DNA of 62,771 bases, filler included, from Chrysochromulina tobinii (Eukaryota), in assembly GCA_001275005.1 (NCBI GenBank). It is 7 parts of 7 records of this genome, joined end to end, with 100 filler letters (N's around TTAATTAATTAA, not from the genome) between each part and the next. Parts side by side here need not be neighbours in the genome. Positions count along the whole stretch, not along the records: positions 4,682 to 21,987 come from JWZX01000986.1; positions 22,088 to 39,557 come from JWZX01000987.1; 5 more parts are not named here. One strand, 5' to 3'. The notes under the pieces were generated by a model, which saw only the letters and a list, made by a program, of their open reading frames with translations, ran no database searches and was not told where the DNA came from. Positions 17,136 through 55,514 of this stretch are shown piece after piece. The translations under genes were made by a program, and so were the position numbers. Within the stretch, counting starts at the first letter, position 1. Every line of letters starts with the position of its first letter.

Positions 17136-18987
17136 TCAGCTGAGCCGCACGAGTCGCATGAACGAGTCACCGACGGGCTCTCCATCCTCAGCAAGGGCCG
17201 CCGCGCTCGCCAGCAGCACGAGCGCCGTCCCGAGCACGCACGCAATCCCCATCGCGAGATAGCTGCTCCCTCCGCCACCTCGGCGCCGCTCCTTCTCCTT
17301 GCCGTAGTAGTCTTGACGAAACCCATTCTCATCCGCGTCGCGGCTGTCGAAGCCGAGCTCCATCGCACGCTCGTAGTCGCGGCCGCGGTTGGGGCCGCCG
17401 CGCCGGCGCATCTCGTTGGGTCCGACCGACGCGAGCTCAGCGTCGGTCGGTGGGCGCGGCGGTGGCGGCGGCTTCCTATTTTGGGTTGAGGGCGCGACCG
17501 GTTTCGTCAGATCGGGTTCGTCATGCGGCGCGAGGTACTGGCGCACGTCCCACACCATGCGCTTCCGGTCCTCATATGGCGCCCGATCAAAGTCCGGATT
17601 CACTTCGGCGGCCTCTTCAGGTGGCACGTTGCTCATCAGCTGCGCCCACTCCCTCTCCAACTGCCGTTCGGAGGGGGTCCACGCGTCGAACTGAGCTTGG
17701 TCCTCAGGAGACAGCATCGACCCCTCCTCCTCCTCGCCCTCCTCGCCCCCGCCTAGGAGGTACGAGCGTACGTCGACGAGGATGCCCCACTGCTCCTCGG
17801 GCGCCTTGCCCCTCAGCTCGCCCTCGAGCCTGCTCGAGAGGTTCTCAGGCGTCATCAGTCAGTGGTAGTCAGTGGTAGTCAGTGGTAGTCAGTGGTAATC
17901 AGGGGCACTCAGGGGCACTCAGCGGCACCGGATGAGGTCCTCCTCGACGCACAACGACTGGACCTGCTGAAGCAGCTGCCGCAGCGCGTCCGGGCCCAGG
18001 TAATTGCCGGGGTCGAGGTCGTCTGCGCCGTTCTGAGCATCGCCCTCCTCCTCCTCCTCGCCCTCCTCCGTAGCCTCCTGCGGGTTGCGAAGGTACTCGA
18101 GTACATCTACCAGCACGCGCCCTCGCTCTTGCACGTCACGACCAGCCAACTCGGCATCGAGCTCCGCGTACCTGATGAAGGAGACCATCAGGGGCCATCA
18201 GTGGCAATCGATGGCAATCGGGGCGACATGGCGTACCTGATGAGCGAGGCCATCCGGCATGCACTCAGCGACGCACTCCGCAGGGCACTCAAGATTCGTC
18301 AAGATTCGCAGCCAGATTCGAGCTCCCGAGCTCTGCGTACTGTCCCTCGAGGTCCTCGCCATCAACGGTCTCACTGAGTGCCTGGCGCGCGTCGTCGTAC
18401 AGCTGCTGCACCTCCTCCTCCGTGAACGGCTCCTCCTCCTCGACAGCCTCGCGCAAGTCGTCTGGGTGCGGCAGCTCCTCGATGGCAGCGTCGTCGAGCT
18501 CCGCCGCACCCGCCGCGCTCATCGACTCGTCCTCGGAGATGAGTGCGGCCGCTCGCGGTGTGCGCGCCTGCGACGGCGGGTCAAAGGGCAGCGACTCGAG
18601 CGACTCGCCCACTGCCTTGCGCGTGCTGTTCGCCCAGCTGCGCACGGCCTCCCTGACCTTTTCGGCGGCAGCCTCCTTGACGCTGTCGGCAGCGCTGCCC
18701 TCGGCGACGTCCAGGTCGACCTCGAGGTCGTCGAGCATCTCCAGGCTCAGATCTGGCAGGTGCACGCTTCCTTTGACCAGCGCGCCGTTGACCGTGCCCG
18801 AGAAGGGCACCACAACCTCGAGCGAGTAGATGGGGTAGGACTTGCCCTTCCGGTCTCCGATGGATACCTCACCAGACACCCAGCTCGAGAGGTTATCCTC
18901 GACGAATAGCCCACTGCCGAGGTTGAGCCCCCTCAGCTTTTCCTTAAGCGCCGAGGTCGCGTAGCCAGTGATCGTGCGCTCTCCCAT
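17136..18987 (-). CDS. Aha1 N-terminal-like domain protein with acidic repeats and C-terminal TM; spliced
   Basis: ERTITGYATSALKEKL..VSGEVSIGDRKGKSYPIYSLEVVVPFSG..KGSVHLPDLS resembles Aha1_N. Introns 18172-18340 and about 17856-17925. Confidence 0.65.
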
Positions 18988-19632
18988 CGCGATTCACCGC
19001 CAATCGGAATCGGGTTGCGTCCGAGCAACTGTGAAACACAACTTTGCGTCGTGTGATCAAATCGGCGTTTTTTTTCGATGACGGTTGACGGGAGCTGTCG
19101 GCGAATATGCAAGCCCAGCGCTCGTCCGTTCCCGCTCGAACGGCCAACCGCACCACGAACCTACGCCAAGCGCGACTCATTTTTGGCGCGAACTCTCAAC
19201 TCATCACCGAAGAGATGAGTGTGGACCACGTCCGCGACCGTTTACGGGTGACGCTTCCATCCAGCCTTTGCCCATCTGAGGGGAGCCCACCGGCCGATGC
19301 TGTAGTCGTCGCCGTGCTTGGATCTCAACGGCATCGGATGTGGGTGCTCAAGCCGCAGTGTAACGCGGCAGCAGGGGCGAGACGTGTCGGAGAGCCCGAG
19401 CGAGCGGTGTATGACAAAAGCCGGCAAAACTGCTCGTGGGGCGTCCAGTGTCAAATGAAGAAGCTTAAGTAGCCACTGCTCCTAGCACCCAGGTACACCT
19501 CGCTCAGCACTACTCACCTCGCCAACACATCACAACCCATCACAACCGCCGACCCCACTGTGGTCGGTGCCGTGCACAAAGGGCAGGCTCATACTTCCCG
19601 TCTGCCGCCGCCACCATTTGGCGCGCGTGCGC

Positions 19633-21146
19633 TTAGTAGGGCGTGGTGGTGAGGGCCGAGAGGGGCGTGTCCGTGTACGCGATCTTGTACACGGTCGTGA
19701 AAAAGGGGAACTCATGCTCAAGGCCCTTCATCTTGAGGATGTGGTTGACCTCCTTGGCCGTGAGAGTTCCCTGCAGCTTCTGGCCGCCGAGCAGCTCAGC
19801 CTCGATCTGGTCGAGCGACTTGGTCTTGCCGTGCTTGGCGAAGGCCTCGGCGCACTTGCGGTTGCGACCGCCGTAGCACGTGGTGATCAGGTCCGCCACA
19901 CCGCACGACTCCAGGAAGGTGTCGTCGCTGATGCCGGCCGTGGGGTAGAACATTTTGCAGAACTTGACCTGCCGAGCGTTGTGCCGAGCGCGAGAGGGGA
20001 CACGCGCAACTCGCTTCGTCAGCACACAAGGGAGAGGGGTAGAAGAAGGAGGAGCCGAGAAAGGGGAGGCCGACGCGCTCCTGCCTTGCATGCAGACGCT
20101 CACCACGGCGCCCCGCTCCCCACAGCAAGTGCCAAAGGGGATGCAGCGAGCAGGGGATGCAGCGAGCAGGGAAGGCAGAGAGCAGGGGAGGCAGCGAGAA
20201 GGGAGGCAGACAACAGGGGATGCAGAGAGCAGGGGAGGCAGACAACAGGCTGCCGAGAGCGTTCGAGCGCCGCCTCGGTCACCATCTCCTTGAGGCCGAT
20301 GCGGATGATGGCGGCCTTGGTGTTGCCGCCCATGCCGAGGCCGTCAACGAAGCCCGCGCCGATGGCCACAATGTTCTTGAGCGCGCCGCACAGCTCGACC
20401 CCCACCGTGTCCTGAACGGTACCGACCTTGAGCGAGAAGTCATCATAGGCAAGCTTGAACAGCTCGCCGTTCTTCTGGTCACGGTAGCCGATCGTAGTCT
20501 CGCAGAAGGCGTCGGAGGCCATGTCGTTGGCCACGTTCGCACCCATGAGCACCGAGCAGTCCGCGTTCAGCTCCTTGCGCAGGATGTCCGAAATGAGCAC
20601 GATGCCGTTCTCGTCAAAGTCGATGCCCTTGATGGCCGAGAGCACCTTGACACCCGGCGCCGCCGCCGCCTTGATCTTAGGCATCATGGGCTTGAGGAAC
20701 TGGTGGGGAAGGCAGAAGCAAATCATGGTGGCGCCCTTGGTCGCGCTCTCGAGGTTGGGGTCGGCGATCACGTTCTTCGTGAACTTGGCGCCCTTGAGGT
20801 ACTTGACGTTCTCGTTCGTCTCGTTGATGATCTGGGTGAGCGGCTTGCCGTCGATCATCTCCTCGTGCACGTACATGCGCACCTCGTTATCGAACACGTC
20901 GTGACGCAGCGCGTTGCGGCCGAGGATGCGCACGAGCGCCGAGCCGAAGTTGCCTGCGACACGCGATCCACCCCTCCACGTGAGTTGAGTGAGCTGACGC
21001 TAAGTGTCGGCCCCGCCGCCTGCGGCCGCTCCGCTTTTAATGTGACGAGCGCACGCACCCGAACCGACCATGCAGATCTTCTCCTTTTTGGTGCTGTACG
21101 CGCGGCTGAGCGCGCGCTGCTGGACCTTCGCCATTCGAGAGAGCAT
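19633..21146 (-). CDS. GPD1: Glycerol-3-phosphate dehydrogenase (NAD+), 3 exons, basic N-terminal presequence
   Basis: [73 protein letters not shown]. Introns about 20955-21058 and 19970-20282. Confidence 0.95.
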
Positions 21147-21354
21147 GATAAGCTTCGACGAAGTGACCTCGCTTGTCGGTGATCTCGCGAATCCTCGAGC
21201 CAGTTCCTCGAGCCATCTTTGGTGTGTCACTGCAACAAGTCGTCTGCAGATGGCGAGTTAGAAAAGGGTGAGGGTCAAGGGTATGGTGCTGTTTGGGTGG
21301 GTGGTGGACCGTCTTTGAGTCTTGAGTGGTGGGTCCTGGTGGACCCGTCTTGGA

Positions 21355-21770
21355 GTCAAGTCAAGTCAAGTCATGTCGAGTACATTGTACTTAGAAAATT
21401 TGCACTCCACACACACTATGCAAGTGCGTATTTTGAACGGGCAGTAACAGTGTCGTAGCACCCGGTTGTCTCGTGCGTCGCGAACGTTCACAAGTTCAAG
21501 TTCAAGTTACTACATAAACAACAGACAACCTAACGGAAGCCTATCGAATGTGCTCTCGAGGCTGAACTTGAACTTGATCTTGAACTACGTTCACACCCCG
21601 CAACGGCAGCACACATCTGAGCGGGCAGTAACAGTGCCGTAGTCGGAGCGCACGGCGAGGCGCACCGGATGCCACGCGGTGTGACGTGAGAACGGCGGAC
21701 AGCCCTTGTTGTTTGACCTTTTCCGCTAAACGATGTGTGTATTCTGAGCGGGCAGTAACAGTGCCGTAGG
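21355..21770. repeat. Cluster of short direct and inverted repeats (possible transposon relic)
   Basis: CGGGCAGTAACAGTG(T/C)CGTAG three times (about 21438, 21622, 21749); (TTCAAG)n facing its complement (CTTGAA)n at about 21490-21585. Confidence 0.6.
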
Positions 21771-21987
21771 TCACGGGGTGGTGCATAGTGGTGGCGGAGC
21801 TTTGAGAATGGTATTCAGGGGGTGATTGGTTTTCAGTGTGACGACGGGCGTGTTAACGTGTTCACAAGTAAGAAGAGCTATCTACTCTAACTGCACTATC
21901 GGTACTGCGGGAGAACGTTACTATAGGACGGTAGGTCCCTCACAGTACCACAGTTATACTCACGGTTTGCTACTGGAAGCCGTCTAC

Positions 21988-22087
21988 NNNNNNNNNNNNN
22001 NNNNNNNNNNNNNNNNNNNNNNNNNNNNNNNTTAATTAATTAANNNNNNNNNNNNNNNNNNNNNNNNNNNNNNNNNNNNNNNNNNNN
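21988..22087. other. Artificial contig linker
   Basis: N/TTAATTAATTAA/N, 100 bp. Confidence 0.99.
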
Positions 22088-22729
22088 CGTATCGAGGGTC
22101 GAGTACGAAAGCGCCACCGCTCCGGCAAACTTGCTCTCCAAGTTCTTGCTCGTCGCCGCACCCACACTCTGCAGCGTACGCACCTCGTTCCAAACCATAT
22201 CAACCACGGTGGCCAGAAAGGCCCTCGTGCCGAGGAGCTGGGCGACCTGCTCGCGCGATTTCAGGCCCTTGACGAACTCCAAGGCAGCGCCGGGATCGCT
22301 GGCCCGCTGCTCAGCTGCCAGCGGGGCTAGCAGCGCAACCGCGACCGCGCGATGCACGCCCACGCCCTTGATCCACTCGACGATGCGCCACTCCTCCGTC
22401 TGGCTCCCGTCCTCGTCCGCAAGGAGCTCGAGAGTGACGTCCTCGGCTTCAACTCCTCGAGCTGGTGATGCTGCGTCTGCCTGTTGTGTTGCTGCGGGCG
22501 GCGGCGATGGAGGCGTCGCAGCACCTTGCAGTTTTGCCACCGTTGCGGCGAACGCCTGGGCTGCCTCGAGCTGCGCCTTGAGCTGCGTGACAGTGTCATT
22601 GGCCAGTCGTCTCGCGTCCTCGACTGCGTCCTCCTTCAGTAGTCTGATCTCACTGACAGCGAAGCTGAAGTGAGCCCCGCCCTCTGCCAGCTTCTGCTCC
22701 ACCTGTCGCACCCTGGCCGCTGTCGACAT
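22088..22729 (-). CDS. N-terminal part of a hypothetical protein (coiled coil plus helical domain), truncated
   Basis: ATG at 22729, open to the contig end, ending ESKFAGAVALSYSTLDT. Confidence 0.6.
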
Positions 22730-23298
22730 TTCCCACGATCGTAAGTCGCGGCCACCGTGGTAAGCGCGGTCCGCTCGCTTTTCCCACAGAACACTGAAAC
22801 ACCAATTCAGTCACACAAACACGTATGAACGAACTCGCGCACTCTCATCTTCTCATGCTCGCGAGACTCGAGTCTGCTGAGCCGTGCAGCGTGCACGAAT
22901 TGCCAATCGTTGTGTAATTCGTTGTATTGAGCCGGCCCGCCATCCGGATCCGGTTTCGTTTACCAACCCACCGCCCCTCCATACGCTTTGGATTTGGGCA
23001 TCGCATCTGTGTTTCGTAGGGTGGAACACGGTGGCCGGTATAGAGCGGTTTGTTTGGTTGTGTGACCCCGGTAGGCATGATGAGTCTGTGTAAGTCTCGT
23101 GTGGGCCGGTTCAGAACAGTCGAGTGCGTCGATTCCTACGCCTCCGCTACTAGTCTACCAGGCCCGTAGTACGCGTACCAGGCCCGCTACTCGACTTGGA
23201 CTACGCCCGTTGTGCGATGGCAGGTAAGCCGGAACCGTTACTCAGGAGACCGGCGGCGGCGGCGCAATACGACTTCCGTGTGCAGCCCCCCAGCACTC

Positions 23299-26076
23299 CT
23301 AGTCGTCCACGTCGCACAGCCCGGGCAGCCGTACGCCGTCCGGTGGCGTGAGCTGTAGCGCGCCGCTGCGGCCGATCCACATGTACGGCACGACGTGCTG
23401 CGCAAACCACTCGTGTGTGATCTTGCCGCTGCGCCTGTGGTCGTCCCAGTTGTCATTGGTGACCACATAACACTCGTGCCCGAGGCGTAGCTGCAGCTTA
23501 GCCCACACGATCTGCGCATCGTCGTCGTCGCGCCGCGGCGGTGTGAAGGTTATGTAGTGCTGTGAAGCATCGAGTCGCTCGGGGGGGCGCCGTGGTGAGC
23601 GCGTGCACACAAGGCAGATCATCAGTGGCAATCAACGTACCTGCCAAGCGTCGAGTCGCTCCGCGTTGAAGGCCTTGAGCGCGCCCGTGCGCCCGCCGTC
23701 GCGCACCCACTCGACGAGGAAGGCCATCGGCAAGTATTCGACCCCCGCCGCACGCGCCTCCTTCGAGTCGTTCGCCTTGAGGACGGCGGCAATGGCCGCA
23801 ATCACGCCGAGGGCGAGCAGAGGGGGCGACCTCTCGCCCGCGCGCGCGCGTACTTCGTCAAAGGCGAGGCGCTTCGGGTTCGTCAAATCCTCGAACTCGG
23901 GGTCAACGGTGCTTCGGTTGCGTCCGACATTCATGCCGTCGATGACCACGACGATCGTGCGCCTCGAAGGCCGCGCTGTCCCCGCTTGGGCGCGTTCGTT
24001 CACGACGGGCGTCGCCGCCGTCGTCGCCGCAGCAGGCGGCACCGCCGCGCGGTGGCTAGTAATCCGTTGCACCTCCTCTTGATGCAACGAGCGCGCCAGC
24101 TCCTCGTCGCTGATCGTCATCCCGGCGGCGCCGGCATTCAAGTGCTCACCACGGCGCCGCTCCTCGTCGCTGATCGTCATCCCGGCGGCGCCGGCATTCA
24201 AGTGCTCACCACGGCGCCGCCCCTCGTCGCTGATCGTCGTCCCGGCGGCGCCGGCATGCAAGTGCTCACCACGGCGCCGCCCCTCGTCGCTGATCGTCAT
24301 CCCGGCGGCGCCGGTGGCGACGACGGATCCGCGACCGCCGCCGCGCCCGCCACCGCGGCCGCCATCGCTGCGACCACTGTGGCTGCCGCCAAGAGCGCCG
24401 CCACGAGCACCCCTTCCTTTGCCCGCGCCGCCAGGGGCAGCGGCTGCGGAGGGCGCGGGCGCAACCGCCGACCAATCGAAAGCCATGGTGGACGGCCCTG
24501 CGCTAGGGAGGGTGGACGGCCCGTGCATGCAAGTGCTCACCACGGCGCTAGGGAGGGTGGACGGCCCGTGCATGCAAGTGCTCACCACAGCGCCCTCGGC
24601 GCTAGGGAGGGTGGACGGCCCGTGGCTGCCCTTGCCGTGGAGCCGCGCATGCTGCCGTCTCTCGTCGGCGCCGTGGTGAGCACTTGCATGCTGCTGCCGT
24701 CTCTCCTCGTGCATCTGCGCCTGGAGCTCGAGCGCGGCATGCACGTGCTCACCACGGCGCCGCGCCTCGGCGATCTGCGCCTGGAGCTCGAGCGCCTCGC
24801 GCGCCTCAGCTGCTCTCGTGGCCGCCGCCGCCGCCGCCTCGGCTTTCGCCGCCGCCGCCGCCGCCGCTCTCGCGGTCCTCGCGGCCTCAGCCTCCTCTCT
24901 CGCTTGCACCTGCCGGCGCAGCTCCGCTGCCTCCTCGGCTTGGCGCGCATGCAAGTGCTCACCACGGCGCAGCTCCGCTGCCTCGTCGAGCTCTCGCGCC
25001 GCCGCCGCCTCAGCCCGCTGTGCCGCCTCCTTGATCGCCGCCTCCTCGGCTTGGCGCGCATGCAAGTGCTCACCACGGCGCAGTGCCGCCTCCTCGGCTT
25101 GGCGCGCGAGCTTGCGCACGTGCTCAGCGCGGCGCTCACTCTCGAGCGCCTCCGCACGCATGCGCTCGACCTCACGAAGCCGCACGAGCTCCTCCTGCTG
25201 GTACCGAAAGGCGAGCGCATCGGCCTCGCGCTGCTCGGCCTCGCGCCGCTGCGCATGCAAGTGCTCGGCTTCTCGCTGCTCGGCGTCGAAGAGAGCCTGC
25301 AGCCGGCGCGCCTCGCGCTCGTCTGCGTCGAGCGGCGGGTCGCTCTCCCACTGTGCATGCAAGTGCTCGGCTTCTCGTTGTAGCCGGCGCGCTTCGCGCT
25401 CGTCCAGGTCGAGCGACGGATCGCTCTCCCACTGCGCATGCAAGTGTTCGGCTCCTCGCTCGTCGGCGTCAAACGGCGGGTCGCTCCCCCACGAGTGCAG
25501 GTCTGGTACGGCCGGCGCTGCGGAGGAGGACGAGGCTGCCTGTGAAAAGGCACGAGATCCCACAGGCACGAGGCTCTGTGGGATCTGCGAGAGCGACGCA
25601 TGAGGCGCCATGGGCGGCGGCGTCGAGGACGCGTCACGCAGGGAGGCCTCGAGAGCGCGGCGCAGCTGCTCCTCTTCCTCCCACTCGGCCACCGGCCGCG
25701 GCGGCGAAGGAGGCCGCGCTTGGTTGAACTGCCGGAGCAGCGCCTCCTGCTGCGAGTACGGATCGAGCGTAGTCAGCGAGAGGCTCGCCGCGACTGCCTC
25801 CTGCTGCGAGTACTGGTCCAGCGTAGACAGCGTGAGGCTCTCGGCGATGGCCTGTGCGATATCGTCGCGGCCCGCAGCGTCCACCGATGGCTGGCGCTCG
25901 AGGCTCGCGAGCAAGGCCGCATTCAGATCGGCATCCTCATGCGCCTGCGCACCATCGACACGCGCGCGCGGAGGCTGCTCGGCGACGCTCGCTGCCAGTG
26001 CGCGGCGGAGATCTTCGTCCTCGTCGTTGTCGTCATCATCAACGTCGGCCGCGGTGTTATCAGAGCGAGTCCCCAT
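23299..26076 (-). CDS. UIM-containing protein with C-terminal Regnase/Zc3h12a-type NYN (PIN) ribonuclease domain
   Basis: UIMs: EDEDLRRALAASV, EDADLNAALLASL, DDIAQAIAESL, EEEQLRRALEASL. NYN motifs: VVIDGMNVG, TPPRRDDDD, YVVTNDNWDDH. GT-AG intron 23560-23640 joins the frames (WQ|HYITF). Confidence 0.8.
24104..24313. repeat. 60-bp coding tandem repeat, about 3.5 copies
   Basis: Encodes GAAGMTISDEGRRRGEHLHA on the minus strand. Confidence 0.9.
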
Positions 26077-26140
26077 TTTCAGGCGGGGGACCGTGAATGA
26101 AGATCGTGAATGCATGAAAACTTGACAAATCAGGGACAAC

Positions 26141-28354
26141 TCAGAGGAGGATCTCTCTCGGCGTATGCCTTGTGGTAGTACCCGCGGGAGTTGTGACGGT
26201 GTACATGAGGCTCCGCGACAAGAGCGCGCTGGGTGACATCCTGCCGCCGTCGCCACCGACGCCGGCCCCGTTCCTGTCGCTGCTGGGGCTGCTCCTGCCG
26301 TTCGCGGCGCCATGCTCGCTGCCGCCTGCGTCCGCCCCCGTCGACCAGCCGCCGCTCCTTTCATCGCCGCCCGTCTCGATGATCCACGCGTGATGTTCGG
26401 CGAGCCGTCTGGCTGGGTTCTCGAGCGGTTTGCTCCCCGTGATCCAGCGCCAGCATTGACGAAGCCCGCGCCACGAGCAGACCGACCAGAGCGCCTGGTA
26501 CCACGTCTGCTCGGACTCGAGCCCTTTTTGGACCACGTATGAGAGGCCCAAGGCGCCCATGGGTGCCCGCGGAGGCGCCGTCGTGGGCAACGCCGTCGGG
26601 CCAGCCGCGGCGCTTCGCGTCGTCGTGGGCATCGGCAGCTTCCTTGGCGGCACGATGGTGCCGAGGGCCCCGGCCGCCGGGTCGGTCTCCACAAGCAGAT
26701 CGTCAGGAGGCACGCCGTTTGGGTACAGGCGCGCCGTGTTGAGCAGCAGGGCGAGCTCGAGGTCGGCTAAGAAGGGCGGGAGGGCGAAGACCTCGAGCAG
26801 GTGGGGGGTCAGCCAAAGAGCCCACAGGAGTAGCGTCAAGAGTTTCGGCAACTCGCCTGAAGGCAGAGGCGATCGGAGGCGATCGGAGGCGATCAAGGCG
26901 ATCAGAGGCGATCGTGGCGGCACTCAGCAGGAGCCTAATTAGGTCACTCACAGGCCTAATTAGGTCACTCACGGAAGAAGAGGTCCCAAAATGGCAATCA
27001 GAGGCAATTAACGACACTCACGGAAGAAGAGGTCCCAAAATGGCCACGCGTTCACCGGATCGGTCAGGTACGCGCCCACTCGATAGAGCTGGCAGAGCAA
27101 GGCGACTTGCATGCAACGGCAGCCTACGGCCTGAGAAGGACGGCCGCACGGTCGGAAGCCGGTTACTCCCGGACCGATGAAGAGGAAGGTGAGCCGATCG
27201 ACGAAACCGTAAGGCCAGCCGTGGGCGAGCTTCACACCCTCACCGCGCATCGGCTTGCCTGATGAGGGAGACAACTTGCGGTCCGTCAAAGGCACTCATC
27301 GGCACTCATCGGCCATCATCAGCCATCATCAGCCATCATCAGCCATCATCAGCCATCATCAGCCATCATCAGGCGTGCCTTCGCGCCATCGGTCACGCTC
27401 CATCTTTCGCAAGATGAAGTTATGATAGATCAGCCGGTAGCTGAGGTAAACGCTCGTGCCGTACCAGAGCCAGTCGGCGAACAGCGTGAGCGAGCGCCAC
27501 GGCGCGCAGAAGAAGAGCGCGCCGCCGAGGGTGCCGAAATAGACCATCAAGATAGCCCAGGACGACGGCGTGAAGTCGGTCAGAGTCTTGAGCTGCGCGT
27601 GGTACACCTGGCTGAGGTAGTAGCTCACGTAGAGGCAGCTGCTCTCGACGGTTTTCTTGAGCGCCGTGTCGCGCTCGAGCTTGTCGCGCGACAGGGTACT
27701 GCATGCATCGAGAAGCTGCACTCGCATCGCGTCCAGCTGACGGGAGGCTAACGTCTCTGTGGGATTGCGTGGCTGGCCACCGGTCTCGAGCCGCTGGTAG
27801 ATGGCGAGCCACTGCTGCATCGCCTGCAGCGCGATCGCGATGAAGGCGAAGTAGAGGAACATGGCCACGAGCAGCGCGAAGATCACGTCGTTGAGGAGGT
27901 AGAGCAGCGTCTCCGCATCAGGCGGCATGCGCGGGTGGCATGAAAGTGATGTCTGCATCGGGATGGCGCTGGCGTTGGCGAGCGACGCCGGGGCATGGAC
28001 GTCTGAGATAGATAGATAGATCTCCACGCGAGGCCACCGGCGCGCGGTTTCCGCGAGGACGTCGAGCAGTCCCGTGCGCGTGGCTATCCAGCTCATAATC
28101 GGGAGCGTTGCGAGCACAGTCATCTCGCCTTGGAGCCGACTCCACACGAGAAACTTTAGCTGCACCTCGTTACTTGAAACGCCCGGCGCGGCCCCGTCCT
28201 TGGGCGGAGAGAGCAGGTGCGTAATCGATCGGCGCGCTGCATCGAGGAGCAGCACGAGGAAGACCACGCCGAGCAGCATGGTGAAGTGAGCCAGACCGTA
28301 CTCCTCCTCTGTGAGAGGCCACTTTGAGGTGGTGTAAGGTTCGGCCGCTGGCAT
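26141..28354 (-). CDS. MLO-like multi-pass membrane protein, spliced
   Basis: VVFLVLLLDAARRSITHLL..WSRLQGEMTVLATL, LLNDVIFAL, YYLSQ..LTDFTPSSW parallel MLO family helices; further hydrophobic exons at about 27020-27240 and 26141-26857. Confidence 0.5.
27292..27371. repeat. Intronic 10-bp tandem repeat (AGCCATCATC)n
   Basis: About 8 units seen directly. Confidence 0.9.
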
Positions 28355-29111
28355 CTAGCAACGTGTACCTTCGTCCGATGCGAGCTCCTCTTCGTCGGGA
28401 AGCAGACAGAAGGGAAGACAAGGGAGAGGAAGAGGAGGTCAAGAGCAGCCACAAGCGAGAAGTTTGTTGAAATCAAACTAAGTATGCTTCGTCAAAAACG
28501 GAAGGTCAAGCGACCTGTGTGGCGCGTCTTCCACGGTGTACAGCGAACCGGCGAATCACGGTGATCACATCACGTGTTATTCAGTGCATGCAACTCTGCC
28601 TGAACGATCATCGAGGGTTTCGAGGCCGAATAAAGGCACCTCCCTGACTTCTTGCTGGACCGGCTCCTGTTTGGGAGCACGGAGGTCTCTGAACGTCGCA
28701 AAAATGGCCGTCCTGTTTGACGCGCTTCATCATGCGGCGCTAGGCACGCCATTTTGCTCGACCCCCTTTCACACGCCGAACGGCGCAGTGAGTTACAAGT
28801 GCAGGCATCAGTTCGACCAAAGTCGAAAGTGCAGAGGTGGCAGACTGATTTGACTGAGGCCCGGAGCCCCACGCCGTCTCGCGTCTGATCTGCAGGACTG
28901 CATCATGAAACCACCGGCGCGGTGGAGATATGACATAAAATATCATAAATATGCGTGCACTACCAGTGTAACAGCGATGCATCTCTGATCACCACACTCT
29001 GGGAGACACTGTGAGTGTCAGCTCAGTGCTCAGGAGACACACGACGATGCTCGGACTGGTGACGTGAGAGCGTCAGCGTGCGTCGACGGGGAGCGCTTGC
29101 GCTTCGAACCT

Positions 29112-29753
29112 TCAATTGACCGCACCGGATTCAAAGTCGAAGACAAACCTATCGCTCACGAATGGTTCGAGGAAAGAACTAAACTCAGCGCGCTCGGCGC
29201 TTGAGAGGAACGCGCGGCGTTCGGCTGTGCCAGCAAACGACACGAGCATCCCCAATGAGTGGCCGCGCGACTCCTTCTCCGTCGATGAGGGACTGCTGCT
29301 AATGAGAGTTCCAAGCTCGACGGTGCGCACTGAGCTGAGAGAGTCGAGCGTGAGGAAGCGCGCGACGATCTCGTCCAAAGGCGCGCCCTCGGATAGCCGC
29401 ACGGACGTGAAATGGCGCAGCCGGCGCTCACGCGTTGGCGTTCCTGGGCTGGCGAAAGCAGCAGTGGAGGTGACGGAGCGCAAGCCGAGCAGCCAGCGCC
29501 GCAGCGAAGCATACACCTCCGCAGCGACAATGGCGATGAGCCACCATGGAGCCTCGCCATACGTCAGCACGGCGAGAACGGATGCCGACACAAAGAGCCA
29601 CCACATCGTTGCGGACCATGAACGGGCCTGCGATTCGACGTTCATCAACTCGTCCTCGTTCTCATCGGGCATGGCCACCCAGCCGGGCTGGTGGATGGCG
29701 TTAGCAGGTACGGGTTCGTAATTGGAAGACGGTGTACGCCGATGCCGCTGCAT
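29112..29753 (-). CDS. Membrane-anchored stress-responsive A/B barrel (Dabb) domain protein
   Basis: LRHFTSVRL..IVARFLTL..VELG..RGHSLGMLVSF..FLEPFVSDRFVFDF, preceded by hydrophobic helices. Confidence 0.7.
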   Translation of the reverse strand: MQRHRRTPSSNYEPVPANAIHQPGWVAMPDENEDELMNVESQARSWSATMWWLFVSASVLAVLTYGEAPWWLIAIVAAEVYASLRRWLLGLRSVTSTAAFASPGTPTRERRLRHFTSVRLSEGAPLDEIVARFLTLDSLSSVRTVELGTLISSSPSSTEKESRGHSLGMLVSFAGTAERRAFLSSAERAEFSSFLEPFVSDRFVFDFESGAVN

Positions 29754-29874
29754 TCGCAACAACCTCCGACGCTTTGTGTGATCGATGTGTGCCTCGCATT
29801 CGGCACGGGAAAATGACGAAACGCGTGCTTTTCGTGGCGCACTTTGACGACGCGACTGTATGTTGAACCCAATC

Positions 29875-31016
29875 CTACGACGCAACGCTAGCCCCCATGC
29901 CCCAATCACGGTAGACGTGCGCCCTTTCAAAGATGAGACGGGGTGCAAAGCGCCGCCGGAACGCCCGAATGCGGCGCGTGGCATCTGCAAGCGCCCCTGT
30001 GCCCATCGGTCCGAATGAGCTATAGCTGTGAACAAGGGCCTCATACGCCGTGGCGATAGCGCTCATGTTGTCATAGAAGCTGATGCCCAGGCCAGCAAAC
30101 TCGGCCTCGTCCTTGGGGTGTGAGCGTTCAGAGAGGACCAGCCGGCCGGCGAGTAGGGCTTTGGAGACCTGATGATGGAGGCAATCAGAGGCACTCAGAG
30201 GCCTCTCAGAGGCACTCAGTACGGATACCCTGAGCGTGATCGTGATAATGGAGGCAATCAGAGGCACTCTCTCAGAGGCACTTGAGAGGCACTCAGTACG
30301 GATACCCTGAACGTGATCGGGTTGTGCGAGTCGCCACATCCCTTGTGCAGATTGAGCCAGATGGCGTGCTCGCGCAAGAGGCGCTGGTAGCTCTCATCGT
30401 CCCAGGCACGGAACGTGTTGGTCAGCTTCTCGCCGACCAGCAGCCCCTGTAGCTCCTTGAAGCACGCATGCCGCGGAGGCCCGTCGCGCACGTTGCCAAA
30501 GAACAGGAGCGCTCCGGGACGCACCATCGGAAGTGGCACTCGCTCCGTTGGGAGAGCGTACATGCTCGCCGCGCCGAGAGGCACGTAGCGCAGCAGCGGA
30601 GCGGTAGGCGCGCTCGAGCACGCCTCGAGATTGTGCCAGGCGAAGTCCCACATCTCATCTACAGCATAACGGCCTACCCTACGTGATGCACACCGATGCT
30701 CAGGCTCACATTGGTAGAAGACGCGTCGGACTCCACGCTGGCCGAGCTCAGCCCACGGTGTGGCGGCATCGGCAAAGCCCCACCCGACCCATATGAGAGC
30801 GTCACCCGCGCGAAGCGTGGACAGATTGCCCTGATAGGCTGCGCTGTGCCTGCGGCGTACACCCTGACCGTAAACGACAACCGGCGGCTTCGAAACGCTA
30901 TGAAAGCCATCCATGAGGGTAGCGACAACCTGCTCGTACATGTACGCGTGCGCCGGCGTGTCCATGCTGTGCCAGATCATCACGAGTGAGGGCGGAGGCC
31001 ATGAATGGCCCGACAT
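29875..31016 (-). CDS. Putative GT-B glycosyltransferase-like protein, 2 exons
   Basis: VFYQCEP, DEMWDF, LLFFGN, IWLNLHK..ITFR|VSKALLAGRLVLSERS; intron about 30169-30306. Confidence 0.55.
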
Positions 31017-31161
31017 CGCGTTGTTTGTCCGAAGATGCCGTTGTTTGTCCGAAGATGCCGAGAGTCAAGACGGGCCGCCACCCTGTGCGCACAGCGCCGG
31101 TGGCCCCACGCGCGGAAAACAAGTCCTTTTTGGTTTTTAATATGGGCCCAGGGGGCGAGGG

Positions 31162-32094
31162 CTGGGGACCCGCTTTTCTTTTCGTCTCTCTATACATAAA
31201 CATGCACCCGGACCCGGACAGCGGAAACCGCGGACGCCACCTACGGACGCCTCCCACGCAGTTGGGCGGATCGGCGGGCGCAGGCCTGCGGCGCACCGCC
31301 GCGCCGACATCGGAGCGAGGCAGCAACCTCTGTGGGTTACGCACACGCACCAGGCGGGGAGGCGACGATGGCGGGGCGCGGCGCGTGGAGACTAGATGGC
31401 GGGGCGCGGCGCGTGGAGACAATGGCGCCATCGTCGCCTCCCCCGGTTCTGCTCGGACGCCGTCCCACATCGCCTTGCAATGCGCCGACGCTTCCTTGCC
31501 ACCGTGCCCGTCGGGGCGGCGTTGGAGACGCCGGCGGCATCAAACCTGCGTGCACCGACGCGCCCGATGGCGCGCGCCCCCGTGGGGAACGCAAAGACGC
31601 ACTCGACACCGTCGCATTACGACGGTGTCGAGCACAAGTGGTGGCTTCCATCGCCGCCGCCGCCGCCGCCGCCTCCGTGGGCGTCACGCCGAAGGCCGAG
31701 GCACCACATTCGGCGCTGATTGCGCCGCGCAACGCGCGGCGTCGGCGCCTTCGCCGCCGCACGTGCACAGCACGCGCGCGCGCTCCGCGCCATCGTGCTG
31801 CGGGCACGAGCTGGCCCGAGTTTGAGAGTCCGAGCGCAGCTCCTCCGTAGCGCGCGCGCGTCAAGGCGCGCGGCGAAAGGGGCGGGCAGGTTGATGGCAA
31901 ATGGAGAGATGGTTGGGAGCAACGCCGTCCTCCGACGCGCCTGGAGCCGGCCGCAGCGGGGCGCGGAGGCGCGCGCGCATGCGCGCGGTGCGCAAAAAAA
32001 AAGGTTGGAGGAGCACGAATTAAAGGGGGTCCGAGCCAGAACCCTGAAAGGCTGCTGCGCTCGCCTTTTTCAGGGTCCCCAGGATTTATTCTCT
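31162..32094. mobile_element. Dispersed hairpin-rich repeat, longer copy 2
   Basis: 31578-32090 matches 1-529. CTGGGGACCC (31162-31171) is the reverse complement of GGGTCCCCAG (32073-32082). Left boundary uncertain. Confidence 0.65.
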
Positions 32095-32102
32095 CTCTTC
32101 GC

Positions 32103-32630
32103 TCATCCAGCTCCAATCGCCAGCGCCCCGCTCACGCCGCCGCCTTTGAGCGCTGCGTACCGCGCCGCCTTCGCGTCCCGTTCAGCCTGTTCAGCTTTTT
32201 GGAGGGCCTCTACACGCAGGTCCCTGCCCTCGCGAAGTAGCAACGGGCACGAACTGACGCGCGGCGCGAAGTCGTAGTAGAAGGTGCGCGGCTCGTCCGG
32301 TCCGGACGCGGCGAAGTCGAGTTCGCTGATCGGCGTCGACGGGTCGCTGAGCTTGTTGGTCGGGTGCACCTCCTCCTTATAAAGGGTGAAGTCGGTCACG
32401 GTGCCACCATGCCTCTGCTCGATGAGGCTTTTGAGCTCGAAGACGCACATCGAGGCGGGCACGCGCACCGTGAAGTCCATCACGCGCCACACGACGCCTC
32501 GCACTTGCAACGTCAGGTGCGACACGATCGGCTTCCGAATCATCAGAGGCTCCTCGGGCACTGCTGTGGGTTGCCAGCCAGCTTTGCCTCCTTTCTCCTT
32601 TTTGCCGCCACCTTTGCCCTTCTTCCCCAT
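32103..32630 (-). CDS. Small ubiquitin-like-fold protein with Lys-rich N-terminus
   Basis: MGKKGKGGGKK..LTLQVRGVVWRVMDFTVRVPASMCVFELKSLIEQRHG..FYYDF..PLLL. Confidence 0.6.
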   Translation of the reverse strand: MGKKGKGGGKKEKGGKAGWQPTAVPEEPLMIRKPIVSHLTLQVRGVVWRVMDFTVRVPASMCVFELKSLIEQRHGGTVTDFTLYKEEVHPTNKLSDPSTPISELDFAASGPDEPRTFYYDFAPRVSSCPLLLREGRDLRVEALQKAEQAERDAKAARYAALKGGGVSGALAIGAG

Positions 32631-32918
32631 CGCAGATCGCGCCGGCGACTCCGCTTGGGGGCGCACGGGGGGGGCCTAGCAAGGTGGCCGGCGGCGGCAG
32701 TCCGTCTCGGTAAGAAAACGAACGAGAGAATGGGCGCCCACTAAGGCGCTTTTCTCAAAGATACCATCCAAGAGCCTACATGTAGCTCTTTTCTTTTCAC
32801 GCTGGATCCTTCCTCTTTCGGCAGTCTTTCGGCGGCGTCGAATGTTGTCGAACTTCTCACAGAGTTTGCGTCGGGATTGCACTTCGGGTTCCGTCCCCGC
32901 CGAGTGTAGTCGTACAAC

Positions 32919-35900
32919 ATGTCAATCCACCCGTCCACACGCCTCCTGGTGAAGCTGACGACGCACCCGAGCAACTTTGGAGTGGACCCGGAGCCCCTTG
33001 ACTGGGGCAACCGCGATCCGAAGAAGCGCGGGCCGGTCGTCGCGACCGTCTCGAAGCCGGGAATGCGGAACGCCATCGGGGCGCACTCGGGCACGTACTG
33101 TGTGTACCGCGCGGTCGCGCTCGCGGTGCAATCGGCACCAGCCGACTTCCGGCCCGACTTCACCAACACGCTGCCGCCGGTTAAGATCGGCCCCTTCGAG
33201 AGCTGGTTCGACACATCGAAGATCGCCTCGCTCGACCCATGGGGCCACGTGCCGCAGTCCATCTTCGGCGACCGCCTCGCGAACGGGACGCTCGACATCC
33301 GGCCGACGATCTCGGTGACCAAGTCGCACCTCGAGCTCCCCGAGCTTCAGCTCGCCGTCAAGAACGGCACCCTCAAAAAGGACGGCACCGTGATCGTCGA
33401 CACCGTGGGTGCGTTCGAGAGCTCGGTGGTCGTCACGAAGGCGGCCGTTGAGCCGGTCTGGTACCTGCCCGAGGTGGCGAGGCGGTTCAAGTGCGACGAG
33501 ATGCAGCTGCGTCGCACCCTCTACGAGCAGACTGGCGGCATGTTCCCTGAGCTCGTGACGCGGAACGATCTGAAACTCTTCTTACCTCCGGTGAACGGCA
33601 TGACGGTCTACATCATAGGCACAGTCGAGTCCATCCCGGATGTGCGAGAGCCGCCGCGCTGCTGAGTGGATGTGCTGAGTGGATGTGCTGAGTGGATGTG
33701 CTGAGTGGAACCCTGATCCACCCTGATCGACCCTGATGGAAATGGCAATTACCTGCTCCACCCTGACCCTGTTGGCTTCGGATGTCAGGTGAGCAAGCCG
33801 CTCGTGGTGCGCCTCCACGACGAATCGGCAGACTCGGACATTTTCAACGCGGATGCTTCAACGTGTCGGCCGTACCTGATCCACGGCATCGTTGAGTGCG
33901 TGCGCGCGGCGCAGGCCGGCGGCGCCGGCCTGATCGTGTACAACCGCGCGGAGGGCAACGCCCTCGGAGAGGTCGCCAAGTTCCTCGTGCACAACGCACG
34001 CAAGGTGTGGGCGAGCCTTGACGAACCCTGACGAACCCTGACTAATTCGCAGCTCCTCGTGCACCTTGCACACAAGGTGCGGCCCACGCCGACTCGGTCG
34101 GCGTTCAGAGTGCCCTCGATTGCAACGGACGAACCCGTACCAACCCTGACGAACCCTGACGAATTCGGATGTCCCCGGGCAGGTGCACGGCGACTCGGTC
34201 GACACTTTCTACGATCAGCAGAAGAAGGTGGCAGGCGCTGACGACGCTCGGCTGTACGAGCTGCTCCCCGACGTGCTGCATTGGCTGGGTGTGACGCAGA
34301 TCGATAAGTTCGTCTCGCGATCGGCGGCCAAGGTGCACCTTGATGACCCTTGATTGCGGCGGACGAGCCCGCCGCGGCCACTGATGGCCTGCCTGATGGC
34401 CTGCTTGATGGCCTGCCTGATAGCCTGCCTGAATGCGCCGCAACACAGGGGCACGCCGTCGAATCTTCCCTGACGAACCCTGACGAACCCTGACGAATTC
34501 GGGTCCCGGGCAGGTGCACGCCGTCGAATCTTCGGGCATCAGGATAGTCGAGGTGACCGGTCTTCCCGAGCGCTTCGTTCCGCGGGCCGCCACTGTTGAG
34601 TCGGCGGCCCGGTCGCCGCTCGCCGGCCCCGTGAAGCTCTCGCCCAAGCGCGCCATGCTCGACTCGGCGGGTCTGCCGGCCAAACGCCCTCACCTCCCCG
34701 ACTCTCTGGGCGAAGTGGGGGCCCCGCCACCACCCCTCGAGCTCAACCGCCGTCGGATCGATTTGAAGCGGCGTGTGGTGCTCACGACGCATCCGCTCCA
34801 GTATGGATCTCGGCCCGCCCAGATTGTGTGGGGAGCTCCTTCCCCACAGGCGCGTGGGCCGGTCATTGCAACTTTGGTGCGCCCTGAGCTGCGCAATGCG
34901 ATCGGTACCCACAACGGGCCGTACGCCATCTACCGCGCGGTTGCCGCCGCCAAGGGCGCCTTCGAGACGACGAAACGGTCCGACCTCGCATTCACAGCTC
35001 CGCCCGTGAAGATCGGCCCGTACCCTTCGTGGTACGACCCGAGCAAGATCGCATCGATCGACCCATGGGGGCATCTGGCTGGCTTCCAGGACGGGCCTGG
35101 CGCAGCGATGGCGGCCGCGGGCGCGGAGATCCAGCCGACGATTGCCATTACGGAAGCGACTCTTCGCATGCCCGAGATCATCGACGCGATGAAAAAGGGA
35201 CGGCTCAAGGCGGACGGCAAAATCTTGCAGGTGCGCCTTCATGACGCCTCTGATTGCGCCTTGATGGCGCCTTGAATGGCGCCTTGCTTGTGACTCTGAT
35301 TGCCATCCTGCAGGAGGACGGCACTCTCTCATGGCATGCTGATTGCCTCCCTCATTGCATGCTGATTGCCATCCCGCAGGAGGACGGCACTCTCTCAGTG
35401 GTCAAATGCGCCATCGACCCTGTTTGGTTCCTACCGGGCATCGCCGAGCGGTTCAAGCTCGAGGAGGCCAAGCTGCGTCAGAACCTCTTCGAGCAGGTAC
35501 GGAGCACGAGCCCTTATTGCATGCTGATGACCTCCCTTATTGCATGCTGATGGCCTCCCTCTCATTGCACGCCTCTGCGAGCAGACTGGCGGAATGTTCC
35601 CTGAGCTCGTCACGCGGAACGATCTGAAAGTGTTTCTGCCCCCCATTGGGGGATGCACGTGCTACATCATCGGCGACCCGGCGAGCTTGCCTGACACCTC
35701 GATACGGCTGTGCGTGCGCGTGCACGATGAGTGTAACGGTTCGGATGTCTTCGGCTCGGATATCTGCACGTGCCGCCCGTACCTTATCCACGGCATCGAG
35801 GAGTGCGTCAAAGAAGCACAGGAAGGCGGTGCCGGCCTCATCGTCTACAACCGCAAGGAGGGCGTGCTCTTGGGAGGTGACCAAGTTCATGGTGTACAAC

Positions 35901-36643
35901 GCGCGCAAGCGGCAGGAGGGGGGCGACACCGCAGCCAACTACTTCAAGCGCACCGAGATGATCGCAGGCGTACAGGTCTGATGGCCACTGAGTACATGTT
36001 GATGGCCTCTGAGTGCCTCTGAGTGCCTCTGATGACCTCTGATGACCTCTGCTTGCCTCTGATGGCCTCCTCGTCTTCCTTTGGGCGCTCTCAGGATATG
36101 CGCTTCCAAGAGTTGATGCCTGACCCTCTGCACTGGCTCGGCGTGACACGAATCGACAAATTCATCTCGATGTCGGATATGAAGTACGACGCGATCGTGA
36201 GCAGCGGCATCGAGATCATCGACCGTATCGACATCCCTGATGAGCTCATCCCACCAGATGCCAAGGCGAGTGCACATGATGCCTCCAGATGCCTTCAGAT
36301 GCCTCCAGATGCCTCCAGATGCCTCCAGATGCCAAGGCGAGGGCGCCGCCGAGAACACATGATGGCCTCTGGTTGTCACATGGTTGCCTCTGATTGTCAC
36401 ATGATGGCCTCTGGTTTGCAAATCATTGCTTCTGATGGCCACACGATTGGGTCTGAATGCACGAGCACATCCCTCCGGTGGGCATCTCCGCAGGTCGAGA
36501 TCGACGCCAAGGTGTACGCGGGCTACTACGCGGGCTCGAAGGAGGTGAAGACCATGGAGCAGCTCGCGTTCACCGTCGGACGGGTGAACGAGTCGTGGCG
36601 GGCGGCCGAGCCAGTGAGTTCTGCACCACCGAGCCATGAGTAA
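32919..36643 (+). CDS. Tandem two-unit Urg1 / GTP cyclohydrolase II-like protein, multi-exon
   Basis: Two copies of LTTHP..RGPV..RNAIG.H.G.Y..DPWGH..QTGGMFPELVTRNDLK.FLPP; unit 2 has RVHDECNGSDVFGSDICTCRPYL. Apparent frameshift near 35860-35876. Confidence 0.9.
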
Positions 36644-37246
36644 ACAGAGTGATCAGTGACTCAGACCTCTCGGCACCACCGAGCCATGAGTCAGCGCGTT
36701 GGCAATTACGAAGCGAGAAATTACCAGAGTGCCAGAGGTGACGGCTGCGCGCGAGGACCGAGAGGTTTGAGGTGCGGGGACGGACGGATCGCACGGCGGC
36801 GCGCCGACCGCGCGGCCGCGGGCCCGGCCGTGGCGAGTGGCGCCGAGAGAGTGCGAGACAGAGGACAGTCCGGCGCTCCGGCGGGGTGAATGCTGAATGG
36901 CCACCAACCCGAACGCAAAGCCGAACGGTCGATCGCGCGGGAACTGTTTCAAACCGTTTTGCGAAAGGATTTTAGGCTAACAATCTGGCCCACAACGGAC
37001 TCTGGCAGATTTGGGGCGCTGTGTGGCACAGCAAGTGAAAGCGCGGAAGACCAGACCGGGATCCGCGTGGGCCGGTGCCGCGTGCGCGCCGCTCAGTGTG
37101 TCAGAACACAGAACTAGCGCAAGGTGCGCACACACAGGCCAATCGCACACTGGGCAGTCGTCCGATTGTAGCGGCACCTCTCTCCACACGGAGAGAGCGG
37201 CGCACCGCCTCACCGCCGCTGGCTGTTCCAGCACCGGTCGGCCAGC

Positions 37247-38370: not shown

Positions 38371-39322
38371 ATGCTCATCGACAAGCTCCTCCTCGCCGAG
38401 TTGGAGGATGTGCTCGTGCTGCTGCTCGAGATCTTCGTCGGCCTCGCTTCGTTCGTCGGCTGCCTCGTCGCCGTCGACAAGCTCTACCTCTTCTACGCGA
38501 CCGTCTTCTACAAGGCGATGGCGATGTGGCGGCCGGCTTGGGAGCCTACGCTCCGCTACCCGAAGCGCTGGAAGCGCGGCGTCAAGCCGCCGCGCGTGTG
38601 CGTGCAGCTGCCCATGTTCAACGAGACCCACGTGGCACGGCGCGTGATCGACTACGCGTGCAGGATGGAGTACCCGCGCGACAGGCTCTATGTCCAGTGC
38701 CTGGACGACTCCACAGACCCCGAGACGCGCGAGGTCGTCGACGAGGGCGTGCGCCACTGGCAGGCGCAGGGCATCAAGATCGAGGCCATCCGGCGTACGA
38801 ACCGGAAGGGCTACAAGGCGGGCGCGATGCACGAGGTCCACGACGCCATCCCGGCGGAGTTCATCGCCATCTTCGACGCGGACTTCTTGCCCGAGCCTGA
38901 CTTTCTACTGCGCGCGATCCCCCCCTTCCAGGACAAGAACGTCGGTTTCGTCCAGGGCCGCTGGACTTACCTCAACGCAGACGAGTCGCTCTTCTGCCGC
39001 TACCAGGAGATCTGCCTCAACGCTCACATCAAGTGCGAGCAGGTGAGTGCCGCTGAGTGCCGCAGAGTGCCGCTGAGTGCCGCTGAGTGCCGCGGAGTGC
39101 CGCGGATTGACACGGATTGCGTCCGATGGCTACTAACGCGCACCTCCACGGCGCACAGTACGCGCGCTTCTCGACGGGCAACTTCTTCAACTTCAACGGC
39201 ACAGGCGGTGTGTGGCGCAAGGCATGCATCGACTCGGCGGGCGGTTGGAATGCACGCACGCTTGTGGAAGATATGGATCTCTCGCTGCGCGCATTCCTCA
39301 AGGGATGGCACTTTGTGTGGCG
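38371..39322 (+). CDS. GT2 cellulose-synthase-like (CSLA/CSLC-type) glycosyltransferase, 3'-truncated
   Basis: VQLPMFNE, LDDSTD, NRKGYKAGA, IAIFDADFLPEPDFL, VQGRW, FNGTGGVWR, GGWNARTLVEDMDLSLRA; intron 39043-39158. Confidence 0.9.
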
Positions 39323-39336
39323 GTACGTGATCCGCT

Positions 39337-39557
39337 CTGATGGCCAATCTGATGGCCTCCTTGATGGCCTCCTGATGACCTCCTGATGACCTCCTGATGA
39401 CCTCCTGATGGCCTCCTTGATGGCCTCCCTGATGACCTCCTGATGGCCTCCTGATGACCTCCCTGATGACCTCCTGATGACCTCCTGATGACCTCCTGAT
39501 GACCTCTCTGATGGCCTCCTTGATGGCCTCCTGATGACCTCCTGATGACCTCCTGAT
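39337..39557. repeat. Intronic 10-11 bp tandem repeat (CTGATGACCTC variants) running into the contig end
   Basis: About 20 units seen directly. Confidence 0.9.
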
Positions 39558-53090: not shown

Positions 53091-53095
53091 GCGAT

Positions 53096-55475: not shown

Positions 55476-55514
<39 letters not shown>

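What the first reader, a model, noticed from the sequence alone, without database searches (positions are those of the whole stretch)
18158..36341. Introns repeatedly contain copies of their own splice junctions
Near-identical pairs: 18158-18171/18327-18340, 26966-26995/27015-27044, 30208-30242/30285-30319, 34446-34468/34511-34533, 35296-35331/35362-35397, 36254-36270/36325-36341. That is six cases in four genes, each duplicating an exon edge into the intron. Inference: an ongoing slippage or break-repair route to intron gain or growth that also creates competing splice sites.
Basis: partly seen in the sequence, partly recalled or inferred. Interest (0 to 1): 0.7.

Follow-up and report, generated by a model that had tools for sequence, protein, structure and literature searches.

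The report
Algal introns copy their own edges
In a haptophyte alga, 11 of 21 introns examined carry a short copy of their own exon edge and near-identical strains carry different copies, so the duplications are likely still arising; the RNA examined is spliced normally, and copies lying exactly at intron ends likely mark how those introns were born.

Summary
All six pairs are real. Cases 2-6 recur letter for letter in other assemblies and lie in introns confirmed by RNA contigs; case 1 rests on protein homology. The host is a Chrysochromulina-like haptophyte. Own exon-edge copies occur in 11 of 21 introns against 7 of 420 swapped pairs. There are two layers. (A) Cases 2-6 are 49-77 nt duplications across one junction, like amphioxus 'mirages'. 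Near-identical strains carry three other such duplications in the same gene, and a relative lacks case 4, so existing introns are likely still growing. (B) Case 1 and about a dozen other introns have a 6-32 nt direct repeat at one end that supplies the GT or the AG, a likely birth scar. Case 4's new acceptor resembles the neighbouring intron's end. No competing junction appears among 10 joints in 4 RNA runs. This scan noted mirages in a sea urchin and a repeat-flanked intron elsewhere in this genome. New variant of a known kind.

The parts
18172..18340 (-). Intron of an Aha1_N-family gene (case 1); its first 14 nt (18327-18340) repeat the next exon's start (18158-18171); layer B, donor side
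   Evidence: family from homologue P0194; no RNA laid
26857..27021 (-). Intron with a 49-nt-period duplicate of its donor junction (case 2; inner copy 26966-26995); layer A
   Evidence: (1 of 4 runs)
27259..27378 (-). GC-AG intron of the same gene; first 7 nt match the next exon at 6
   Evidence: (3 of 4 runs)
30169..30305 (-). Intron made of two 77-nt units that include 14 nt of exon (case 3; inner copy 30208-30242); layer A
   Evidence: 1 of 4 runs, depth 2.4
32919..36643 (+). Two-domain GTP cyclohydrolase-like gene (GTP_CH_N + GTP_cyclohydro2), 8 exons, 7 phase-0 introns
   Evidence: (transcript-like L001)
33642..33788 (+). Intron U1; first 13 nt match the next exon at 10; other strains carry a 23-codon donor-junction duplication
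34005..34182 (+). Intron U2; holds a 24-nt AG/GT-flanked copy of the upstream exon end (34053-34076), then a copy of the next exon's start; its 3' end resembles that of U3
34333..34513 (+). Intron U3 (case 4); inner acceptor copy 34446-34468 followed by about 45 nt resembling the U2 3' end; P0152/P0153 lack this block; L007 adds a 69-nt donor duplication
35231..35379 (+). Intron U4 (case 5); inner acceptor at 35313 would add 22 codons in frame; L008 adds a 53-nt donor duplication
35497..35584 (+). Intron U5; last 13 nt match the upstream exon end at 12; layer B, acceptor side
   Evidence: (3 of 4 runs)
35976..36094 (+). Intron U6; 10-nt repeats, no clear edge copy
36266..36493 (+). GC-AG intron U7 (case 6); inner donor copy 36325-36341, 71-nt period
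23560..23640 (-). Predicted intron; last 21 nt match the upstream exon end at 18; layer B
   Evidence: lay in the stretch but gave no joint (thin cover)
39043..39158 (+). Predicted intron of a GT2 glycosyltransferase gene; last 24 nt match the upstream exon end at 17; layer B, decayed
   Evidence: no RNA joint shown
36623..36691 (+). 50-nt-period duplicate of the last codons and stop into the 3' UTR: same size class, no splice site

Best explanation
The introns of this alga hold direct copies of their own exon edges, likely made by short local DNA duplications and kept by selection only where normal splicing survives. Layer A: duplications of about 50-80 nt arise by slippage or template switching (mechanism inferred). 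In coding sequence they persist only in frame. Across a junction they persist at any length, because the extra copy is spliced out with the intron when the outer site is used; this lengthens old introns and leaves unused inner sites. Layer B: a 6-32 nt repeat at exactly one end of an intron, supplying its GT or its AG, is likely the scar of the same duplication-plus-filler event happening inside an exon, which would create the intron. In case 4 the filler was likely copied from the 3' end of the neighbouring intron. Shown: the copies, their excess over controls, the junctions used, the strain differences. Inferred: the enzyme route, the direction of the case-4 change, and birth for layer B.
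For: Copies are anchored at the junction and direct only. Strain differences at fixed intron positions: L008 has a 53-nt and L007 a 69-nt donor duplication, with exon 4 identical to the window at 693 and 694 of 699 nt. 2 of 18 genomic read-throughs of exon 1 (P0157, on 5 contigs from three sources, and P0168) repeat 23 codons over the U1 donor, with exon 1 identical at 241 of 241. P0152 and P0153 (230 and 227 of 239 identical) run from the inner acceptor straight into exon 4. All these units join exon and intron letters as in DNA. Close repeats inside long reading frames have periods divisible by 3 in 23 of 23 rows, those across an exon edge or stop in 1 of 6. With introns of 81-314 nt, 46-64% of placements touching an intron would cross a junction by geometry alone. 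Layer B: anchored 5' match 0 of 100000 permutations, also within the 10 GT/GT introns; anchored 3' match 119 of 100000; exons ending CAG and next exons starting GT exclude each other (0, 5, 11, 5; Fisher p 0.012). None of the 7 intron positions is shared between the gene's two paralogous halves, and four relatives at 74-76% identity on 8-55 kb contigs have an unbroken gene. Neighbouring introns are more alike than introns of different genes (median 18 against 9.5).
Against: 21 introns from one window and one extension, 11 of them without an RNA joint; no genome-wide count. 10 of 21 introns show no copy at score 10. L007 starts with what looks like an assembly loop, so its duplication is the weakest of the three. 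The strain evidence is short-read contigs and predicted proteins, not reads. No close strain lacks a whole intron, so birth is not caught. Intron-free relatives could have lost introns. 15 of the 23 in-frame rows lie in one repetitive gene, and the neighbour test has non-independent pairs. Several intron repeat motifs are high-copy in the DNA run (bins at depth 2780 and 15741 against about 40), which fits a mobile family as well. Why the outer site wins, above all in case 5 where the inner one is in frame, is not explained beyond survivorship.
Confidence: 0.68

Rival explanations
1. Layer B introns are Introner-like insertions: a short mobile sequence carries one splice site and takes the other from an unusually long target-site duplication. 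Layer A is unrelated later growth.
For: One-sided supply of GT or CAG is the pattern described for Introners (passages). A Chrysochromulina sp. MAG has Introners with 4-bp TSDs and no TIRs. Several terminal repeats are 12-14 nt long, some intron motifs are high-copy, and all 7 introns of one gene are phase 0. An unchecked note on this genome (e1-2577349) reads a 15-bp flanked intron this way.
Against: Repeat lengths run from 6 to 32 nt, whereas the TSD lengths quoted in the passages read are 3-8 nt and fixed per class. Case 4's filler resembles the adjacent intron, and its bins are near single-copy depth (56 and 186). The interiors are 10-23 nt arrays, not a shared body.
Confidence: 0.3
2. Layer B is not a birth scar. 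Old introns get exon-edge copies at their far end later, by repair templated on spliced cDNA or by a duplication followed by deletion; only versions that keep a GT or AG survive.
For: U2 holds upstream-exon-end and downstream-exon-start copies side by side, like a spliced junction. Layer A shows that edges are copied after introns exist. In one search's alignment two exon-4 differences between the window and L007/L008 fall inside the duplicated 20 nt and make the window's exon match the intron copy, which hints at cross-talk between copies.
Against: All strain-variable units seen contain intron letters, so they were copied from DNA or pre-mRNA. Intron positions are not shared between the gene halves or with intron-free relatives, so the introns are young enough for scars to last.
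Confidence: 0.2
3. The copies are selected alternative splice sites or micro-exons used for regulation.
For: The case-5 inner acceptor and the U2 pseudo-exon are in frame without stops.
Against: No alternative joint among 10 in 4 runs. Inner sites in cases 2, 3, 4 and 6 shift the frame, and the copies differ between strains.
Confidence: 0.05
4. Assembly artefact or chance match in repeat-rich, GC-rich DNA.
For: The window has at least two missing letters, and case 1 was not checked in other DNA.
Against: Cases 2-6 are identical in other assemblies; swapped, distant and inverted controls are near zero.
Confidence: 0.02

Closest known systems
Amphioxus 'mirages' (globins BflGb6 and BflGb9, Adh3, PGBD5; passages of PMC3087553 and PMC3902484)
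   Same: Tandem duplications of 5' or 3' exon-intron boundaries that keep splice signals, vary between haplotypes, do not disturb splicing, and were proposed as a route to new introns.
   Different: Here a haptophyte; two copies only; units of 49-77 nt in introns of about 150 nt; about half of the introns affected. They co-occur with one-sided terminal repeats and with filler resembling the neighbouring intron, neither described in the passages read.
Introners and introner-like elements (Chrysochromulina sp. MAG, Symbiodinium, Polarella; passages of 10.1101/2022.06.06.494994 and 10.1101/2020.10.14.339549)
   Same: One splice site taken from a duplicated target and the other brought by the insert; lineage-specific introns; phase-0 bias.
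   Different: Duplications here are longer and variable (6-32 nt); no shared element body was shown; inner junction copies are not part of the Introner model.
Intron gain by NHEJ at staggered breaks (Daphnia) and by tandem genomic duplication (Rogers model) (passages of PMC3443670)
   Same: Direct repeats at intron borders; duplication of exon sequence that supplies splice sites.
   Different: The Rogers model needs AG-GT at the junction and an intron that is wholly exon copy; 3 of 21 junctions here have AG-GT, and the interiors are repeat arrays. The Daphnia filler is not copied from a neighbouring intron in the passage read.

Membership tests
Mirages (layer A) | Repeat unit spans an exon-intron boundary | tested here: met
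   Cases 2-6 against RNA joints; case 1 is not of this type
Mirages (layer A) | Both donor and acceptor boundaries can be duplicated, splice signals kept | tested here: met
   Donors: cases 2, 3, 6; acceptors: cases 4, 5
Mirages (layer A) | Normal mRNA is still made | tested here: met
   10 joints, one per intron, 4 RNA runs, contigs only
Mirages (layer A) | Copy number differs between haplotypes | tested here: met
   L007, L008, P0157/P0168, P0152/P0153
Mirages (layer A) | Arrays of three or more units (usual, but BflGb9 is a single duplicate, so not taken as defining) | tested here: not met
   Two copies in every case
Mirages (layer A) | Somatic instability | not testable with these tools
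   Only contigs were served
Introners (layer B) | One splice site recruited from a target-site duplication | tested here: met
   Anchored repeats and CAG/GT exclusion
Introners (layer B) | Short duplication of fixed length per family | tested here: not met
   6-32 nt; decay blurs lengths, and families were not separated
Introners (layer B) | Many whole-length similar introns across the genome | tested here: inconclusive
   Shared repeat motifs only; no genome held
Introners (layer B) | Empty site in close relatives | tested here: inconclusive
   Intron-free only at 74-76% protein identity; the close strains seen have the introns
Introners (layer B) | Terminal inverted repeats or a transposase | not tested
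   Reported absent in the Chrysochromulina example
Rogers tandem-duplication introns | Both sites from a duplicated AG-GT, intron wholly a copy of flanking exon | tested here: not met
   AG-GT at 3 of 21 junctions; interiors are repeat arrays
NHEJ-gained introns (Daphnia type) | Flanking repeats commoner in gained than in conserved introns | not tested
   No conserved-intron set could be defined; the review asks for this control

The most novel reading that the evidence does not exclude
Introns beget introns without a transposon: a DNA template switch duplicates 6-30 nt of exon that starts with GT or ends with CAG and fills the gap with a copy of a nearby intron's end, giving a precise new intron in one step. 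Case 4 is such an event caught at an existing junction, and it still segregates. This would account for most intron gain in this haptophyte lineage.
Probability: 0.3. Interest if true: 0.82.

Novelty: new variant of a known kind. Interest (0 to 1): 0.6.

Why it matters
The source of most new introns outside Introner bursts is an open question, and clear cases at population level are few (PMC3443670, passages). Here about half of the introns carry readable scars, and one gene shows four segregating junction duplications. A cultured alga with natural strain variation would make duplication-driven intron growth and gain directly countable. It also shows a spliceosome that passes over near-perfect inner splice sites in introns of about 150 nt, and warns that such copies can mislead gene models.

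Tried and rejected
No whole genome is held, so no genome-wide count. Two motif scans of viral contigs found nothing. The first read-laying was swamped by repeats from other loci and showed no true joint; the stricter RNA-only one did. The predicted intron 23560-23640 gave no joint (thin cover; no evidence either way). The Emiliania genome paper, which I recall describing 10-11 nt intron repeats, is not held, so that point is recall only. The passages of the C. tobin genome paper and of an E. huxleyi transcriptome paper say nothing on junction copies; the latter reports many GC donors and much intron retention. Searches listed no paper on junction copies in haptophytes; I saw listings and abstract starts only, subscription journals are missing, and no supplements were read. 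Left out of counts: the repeat arrays at 17856-17931 (no clean AG) and about 3876-3972 (doubtful gene), 8 of 37 repeat rows (6 intronic, 2 intergenic) and everything in 39300-44100. The first 120 nt of L007, which look like a second U3, were set aside as a likely assembly loop. Whether the U2/U3 end motif occurs in other fetched loci was left open.

Full report
Observation. The six pairs are at the stated places, with 0-1 mismatches each. The window is eukaryotic, 62% GC, with introns full of 10-23 nt tandem repeats. The closest named protein to exon 4 of the main gene is from Chrysochromulina tobinii, 99% identical over 54% of the query, so the host is a Chrysochromulina-like haptophyte. No whole genome is held.

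The introns. Contigs of four RNA runs laid on 22100-37400 gave exactly 10 joints, none hidden, each fitting one GT-AG or GC-AG intron: 26857-27021, 27259-27378, 30169-30305 and the seven introns U1-U7 of a two-domain GTP cyclohydrolase-like gene. Cases 2-6 lie in five of them, and in all five the outer site is used. Cases 2 and 3 rest on one contig each. Case 1's intron (18172-18340) is fixed by homology: 10 of 13 relatives have the expected residue count across it. Six further window introns and four from L005, beyond an N gap, are inferred from reading frames.

Real and above chance. L005, L006 and L003 are other assemblies of what may be the same strain. L005/L006 cover cases 2-6, and L003 covers cases 4-6, without a difference there; X2 unitigs span cases 3 and 6. 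A 25-nt exon edge aligned to its own intron at score 10 or more in 9 of 17 cases, against 5 of 272 swapped pairs, 0 of 17 for the next 25 nt out and 0 of 17 for inverted copies. The four unselected L005 introns gave 2 of 4 against 0 of 80, and the total is 11 of 21 against 7 of 420.

Layer A, duplications across one junction. Cases 2, 3 and 6 repeat the donor and cases 4 and 5 the acceptor, at periods of 49-77 nt. They are still changing. L008 has a 53-nt duplication of the U4 donor (18 exon + 35 intron nt) and L007 a 69-nt one of the U3 donor (37 + 32), both absent from the window, with over 99% identical exons. Two of 18 genomic read-throughs of exon 1 repeat 23 codons across the U1 donor; P0157 is on 5 contigs from three sources. 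P0152 and P0153, about 95% identical, go from the inner U3 acceptor straight into exon 4, so they lack case 4. Intron positions are the same in all these strains, so this layer is growth of existing introns. No targeting is needed: close repeats inside long reading frames have periods divisible by three in 23 of 23 rows (15 in one gene), those across an exon edge or the stop in 1 of 6, and for introns this short about half of all placements cross a junction. The stop codon of the same gene is duplicated the same way (36623-36691).

Layer B, repeats at the very ends. Case 1's intron starts with 13 of 14 nt of the next exon. Others do likewise (U1 10/13, U3 6/6, three GT2 introns 12/12, 7/7 and 24/32, and three weaker ones), or end like the previous exon (U5 12/13, U4 7/9, 23560-23640 18/21, 39043-39158 17/24). 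The repeat is on one side only. Of 21 introns, 5 follow an exon ending in CAG and none of these precedes an exon starting with GT, whereas 11 of the other 16 do (p 0.012). Each intron thus seems to take one splice site from duplicated exon sequence. The introns look young: 0 of 7 positions are shared between the gene's two halves, four relatives at 74-76% identity have the gene unbroken on 8-55 kb contigs, and fragments from other relatives break elsewhere. Two homologues of the case-1 gene are unbroken on 120 and 214 kb contigs. Loss in those relatives is not excluded.

The link between the layers. In case 4 the 20-nt exon start is duplicated, and the 45 nt between the copies align closely to the 3' end of U2, 330 nt upstream; exons 3 and 4 share their first 7 nt. 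The DNA-run depth over U2 and U3 is 56 and 186 against about 40 for single-copy stretches and thousands over U4-U7, so a local template is likelier than a dispersed family. Neighbouring introns are more alike than introns of different genes (median 18 against 9.5; non-independent pairs). The same event inside an exon, at a GT, would give a layer-B intron. That step is inference.

Competing sites. Inner sites would shift the frame in cases 2, 3, 4 and 6, with a stop inside the added piece in cases 2, 3 and 4. The case-5 inner acceptor (+22 codons) and a 24-nt pseudo-exon in U2 are in frame. None appears, though contigs drop rare forms. Intron repeats are strand-biased: TGA 186 sense against 45 antisense, and the branch-point-like CTGAY (consensus recalled) 93 against 10; 13 of 21 introns have stops in all three frames. 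This would likely send mis-spliced RNA to decay; that is untested.

Known kinds. Layer B works like an Introner insertion (passages) but fails the fixed short duplication test, so I do not file it there; note e1-2577349 on this genome favours a mobile family and remains the main rival. It also fails the Rogers model and could not be tested against the Daphnia criterion. Ten literature searches listed nothing on junction copies in haptophytes, within the library's limits. For each paper I read search listings or term-matched passages only, and no supplements.

Verdict. Observation confirmed and extended. Ongoing junction duplication is well supported, intron birth by the same route is plausible but unproven, and active splice-site competition was not seen. 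New variant of a known kind, interest 0.6.

Noticed in passing
window 23632-26766 (-), 19969-20282, 23560-23640: A roughly 25-nt element recurs many times in frame inside a 1044-codon open frame and also in introns; it is high-copy in the DNA run. P0145 and P0146, spliced elsewhere, switch into what looks like this element about 30 residues into exon 4, possibly a strain-specific insertion or a chimeric contig.
   Followed up: no
window 17856-17931: Intron-like 10-nt repeat array interrupting the case-1 gene, with no clean AG acceptor in the window; assembly slip or non-canonical end.
   Followed up: no
window 35859 and 35871: The window lacks one G at each place; four RNA runs and L005 have them, so the apparent frameshift in exon 6 is an assembly slip.
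   Followed up: yes
window 32919-36643: All seven introns of this gene are phase 0; the gene is an internal duplication with halves identical at 205 of 381 aligned residues.
   Followed up: partly
window 31100-32050 and 1-521: A high-copy non-coding element occurs twice in the window at about 90% identity.
   Followed up: no
window 39558-39657; L005 16370-18500: L005 continues the GT2 glycosyltransferase gene past the N gap with four more introns, whereas the window resumes with unrelated proline-rich sequence, so the scaffold may miss about 3 kb or more here.
   Followed up: partly
window 33642-33788: The start of intron U1 reads in at least six forms among 18 genomic read-throughs of near-identical strains: fast turnover of intron interiors.
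   Followed up: partly
window 21438-21770: Three spaced copies of a 15-27 nt intergenic repeat next to the glycerol-3-phosphate dehydrogenase gene.
   Followed up: no
window 53039-60370 (+): A 2443-codon open frame without an evident intron, including a lysine/glycine/aspartate-rich repeat region; not identified.
   Followed up: no
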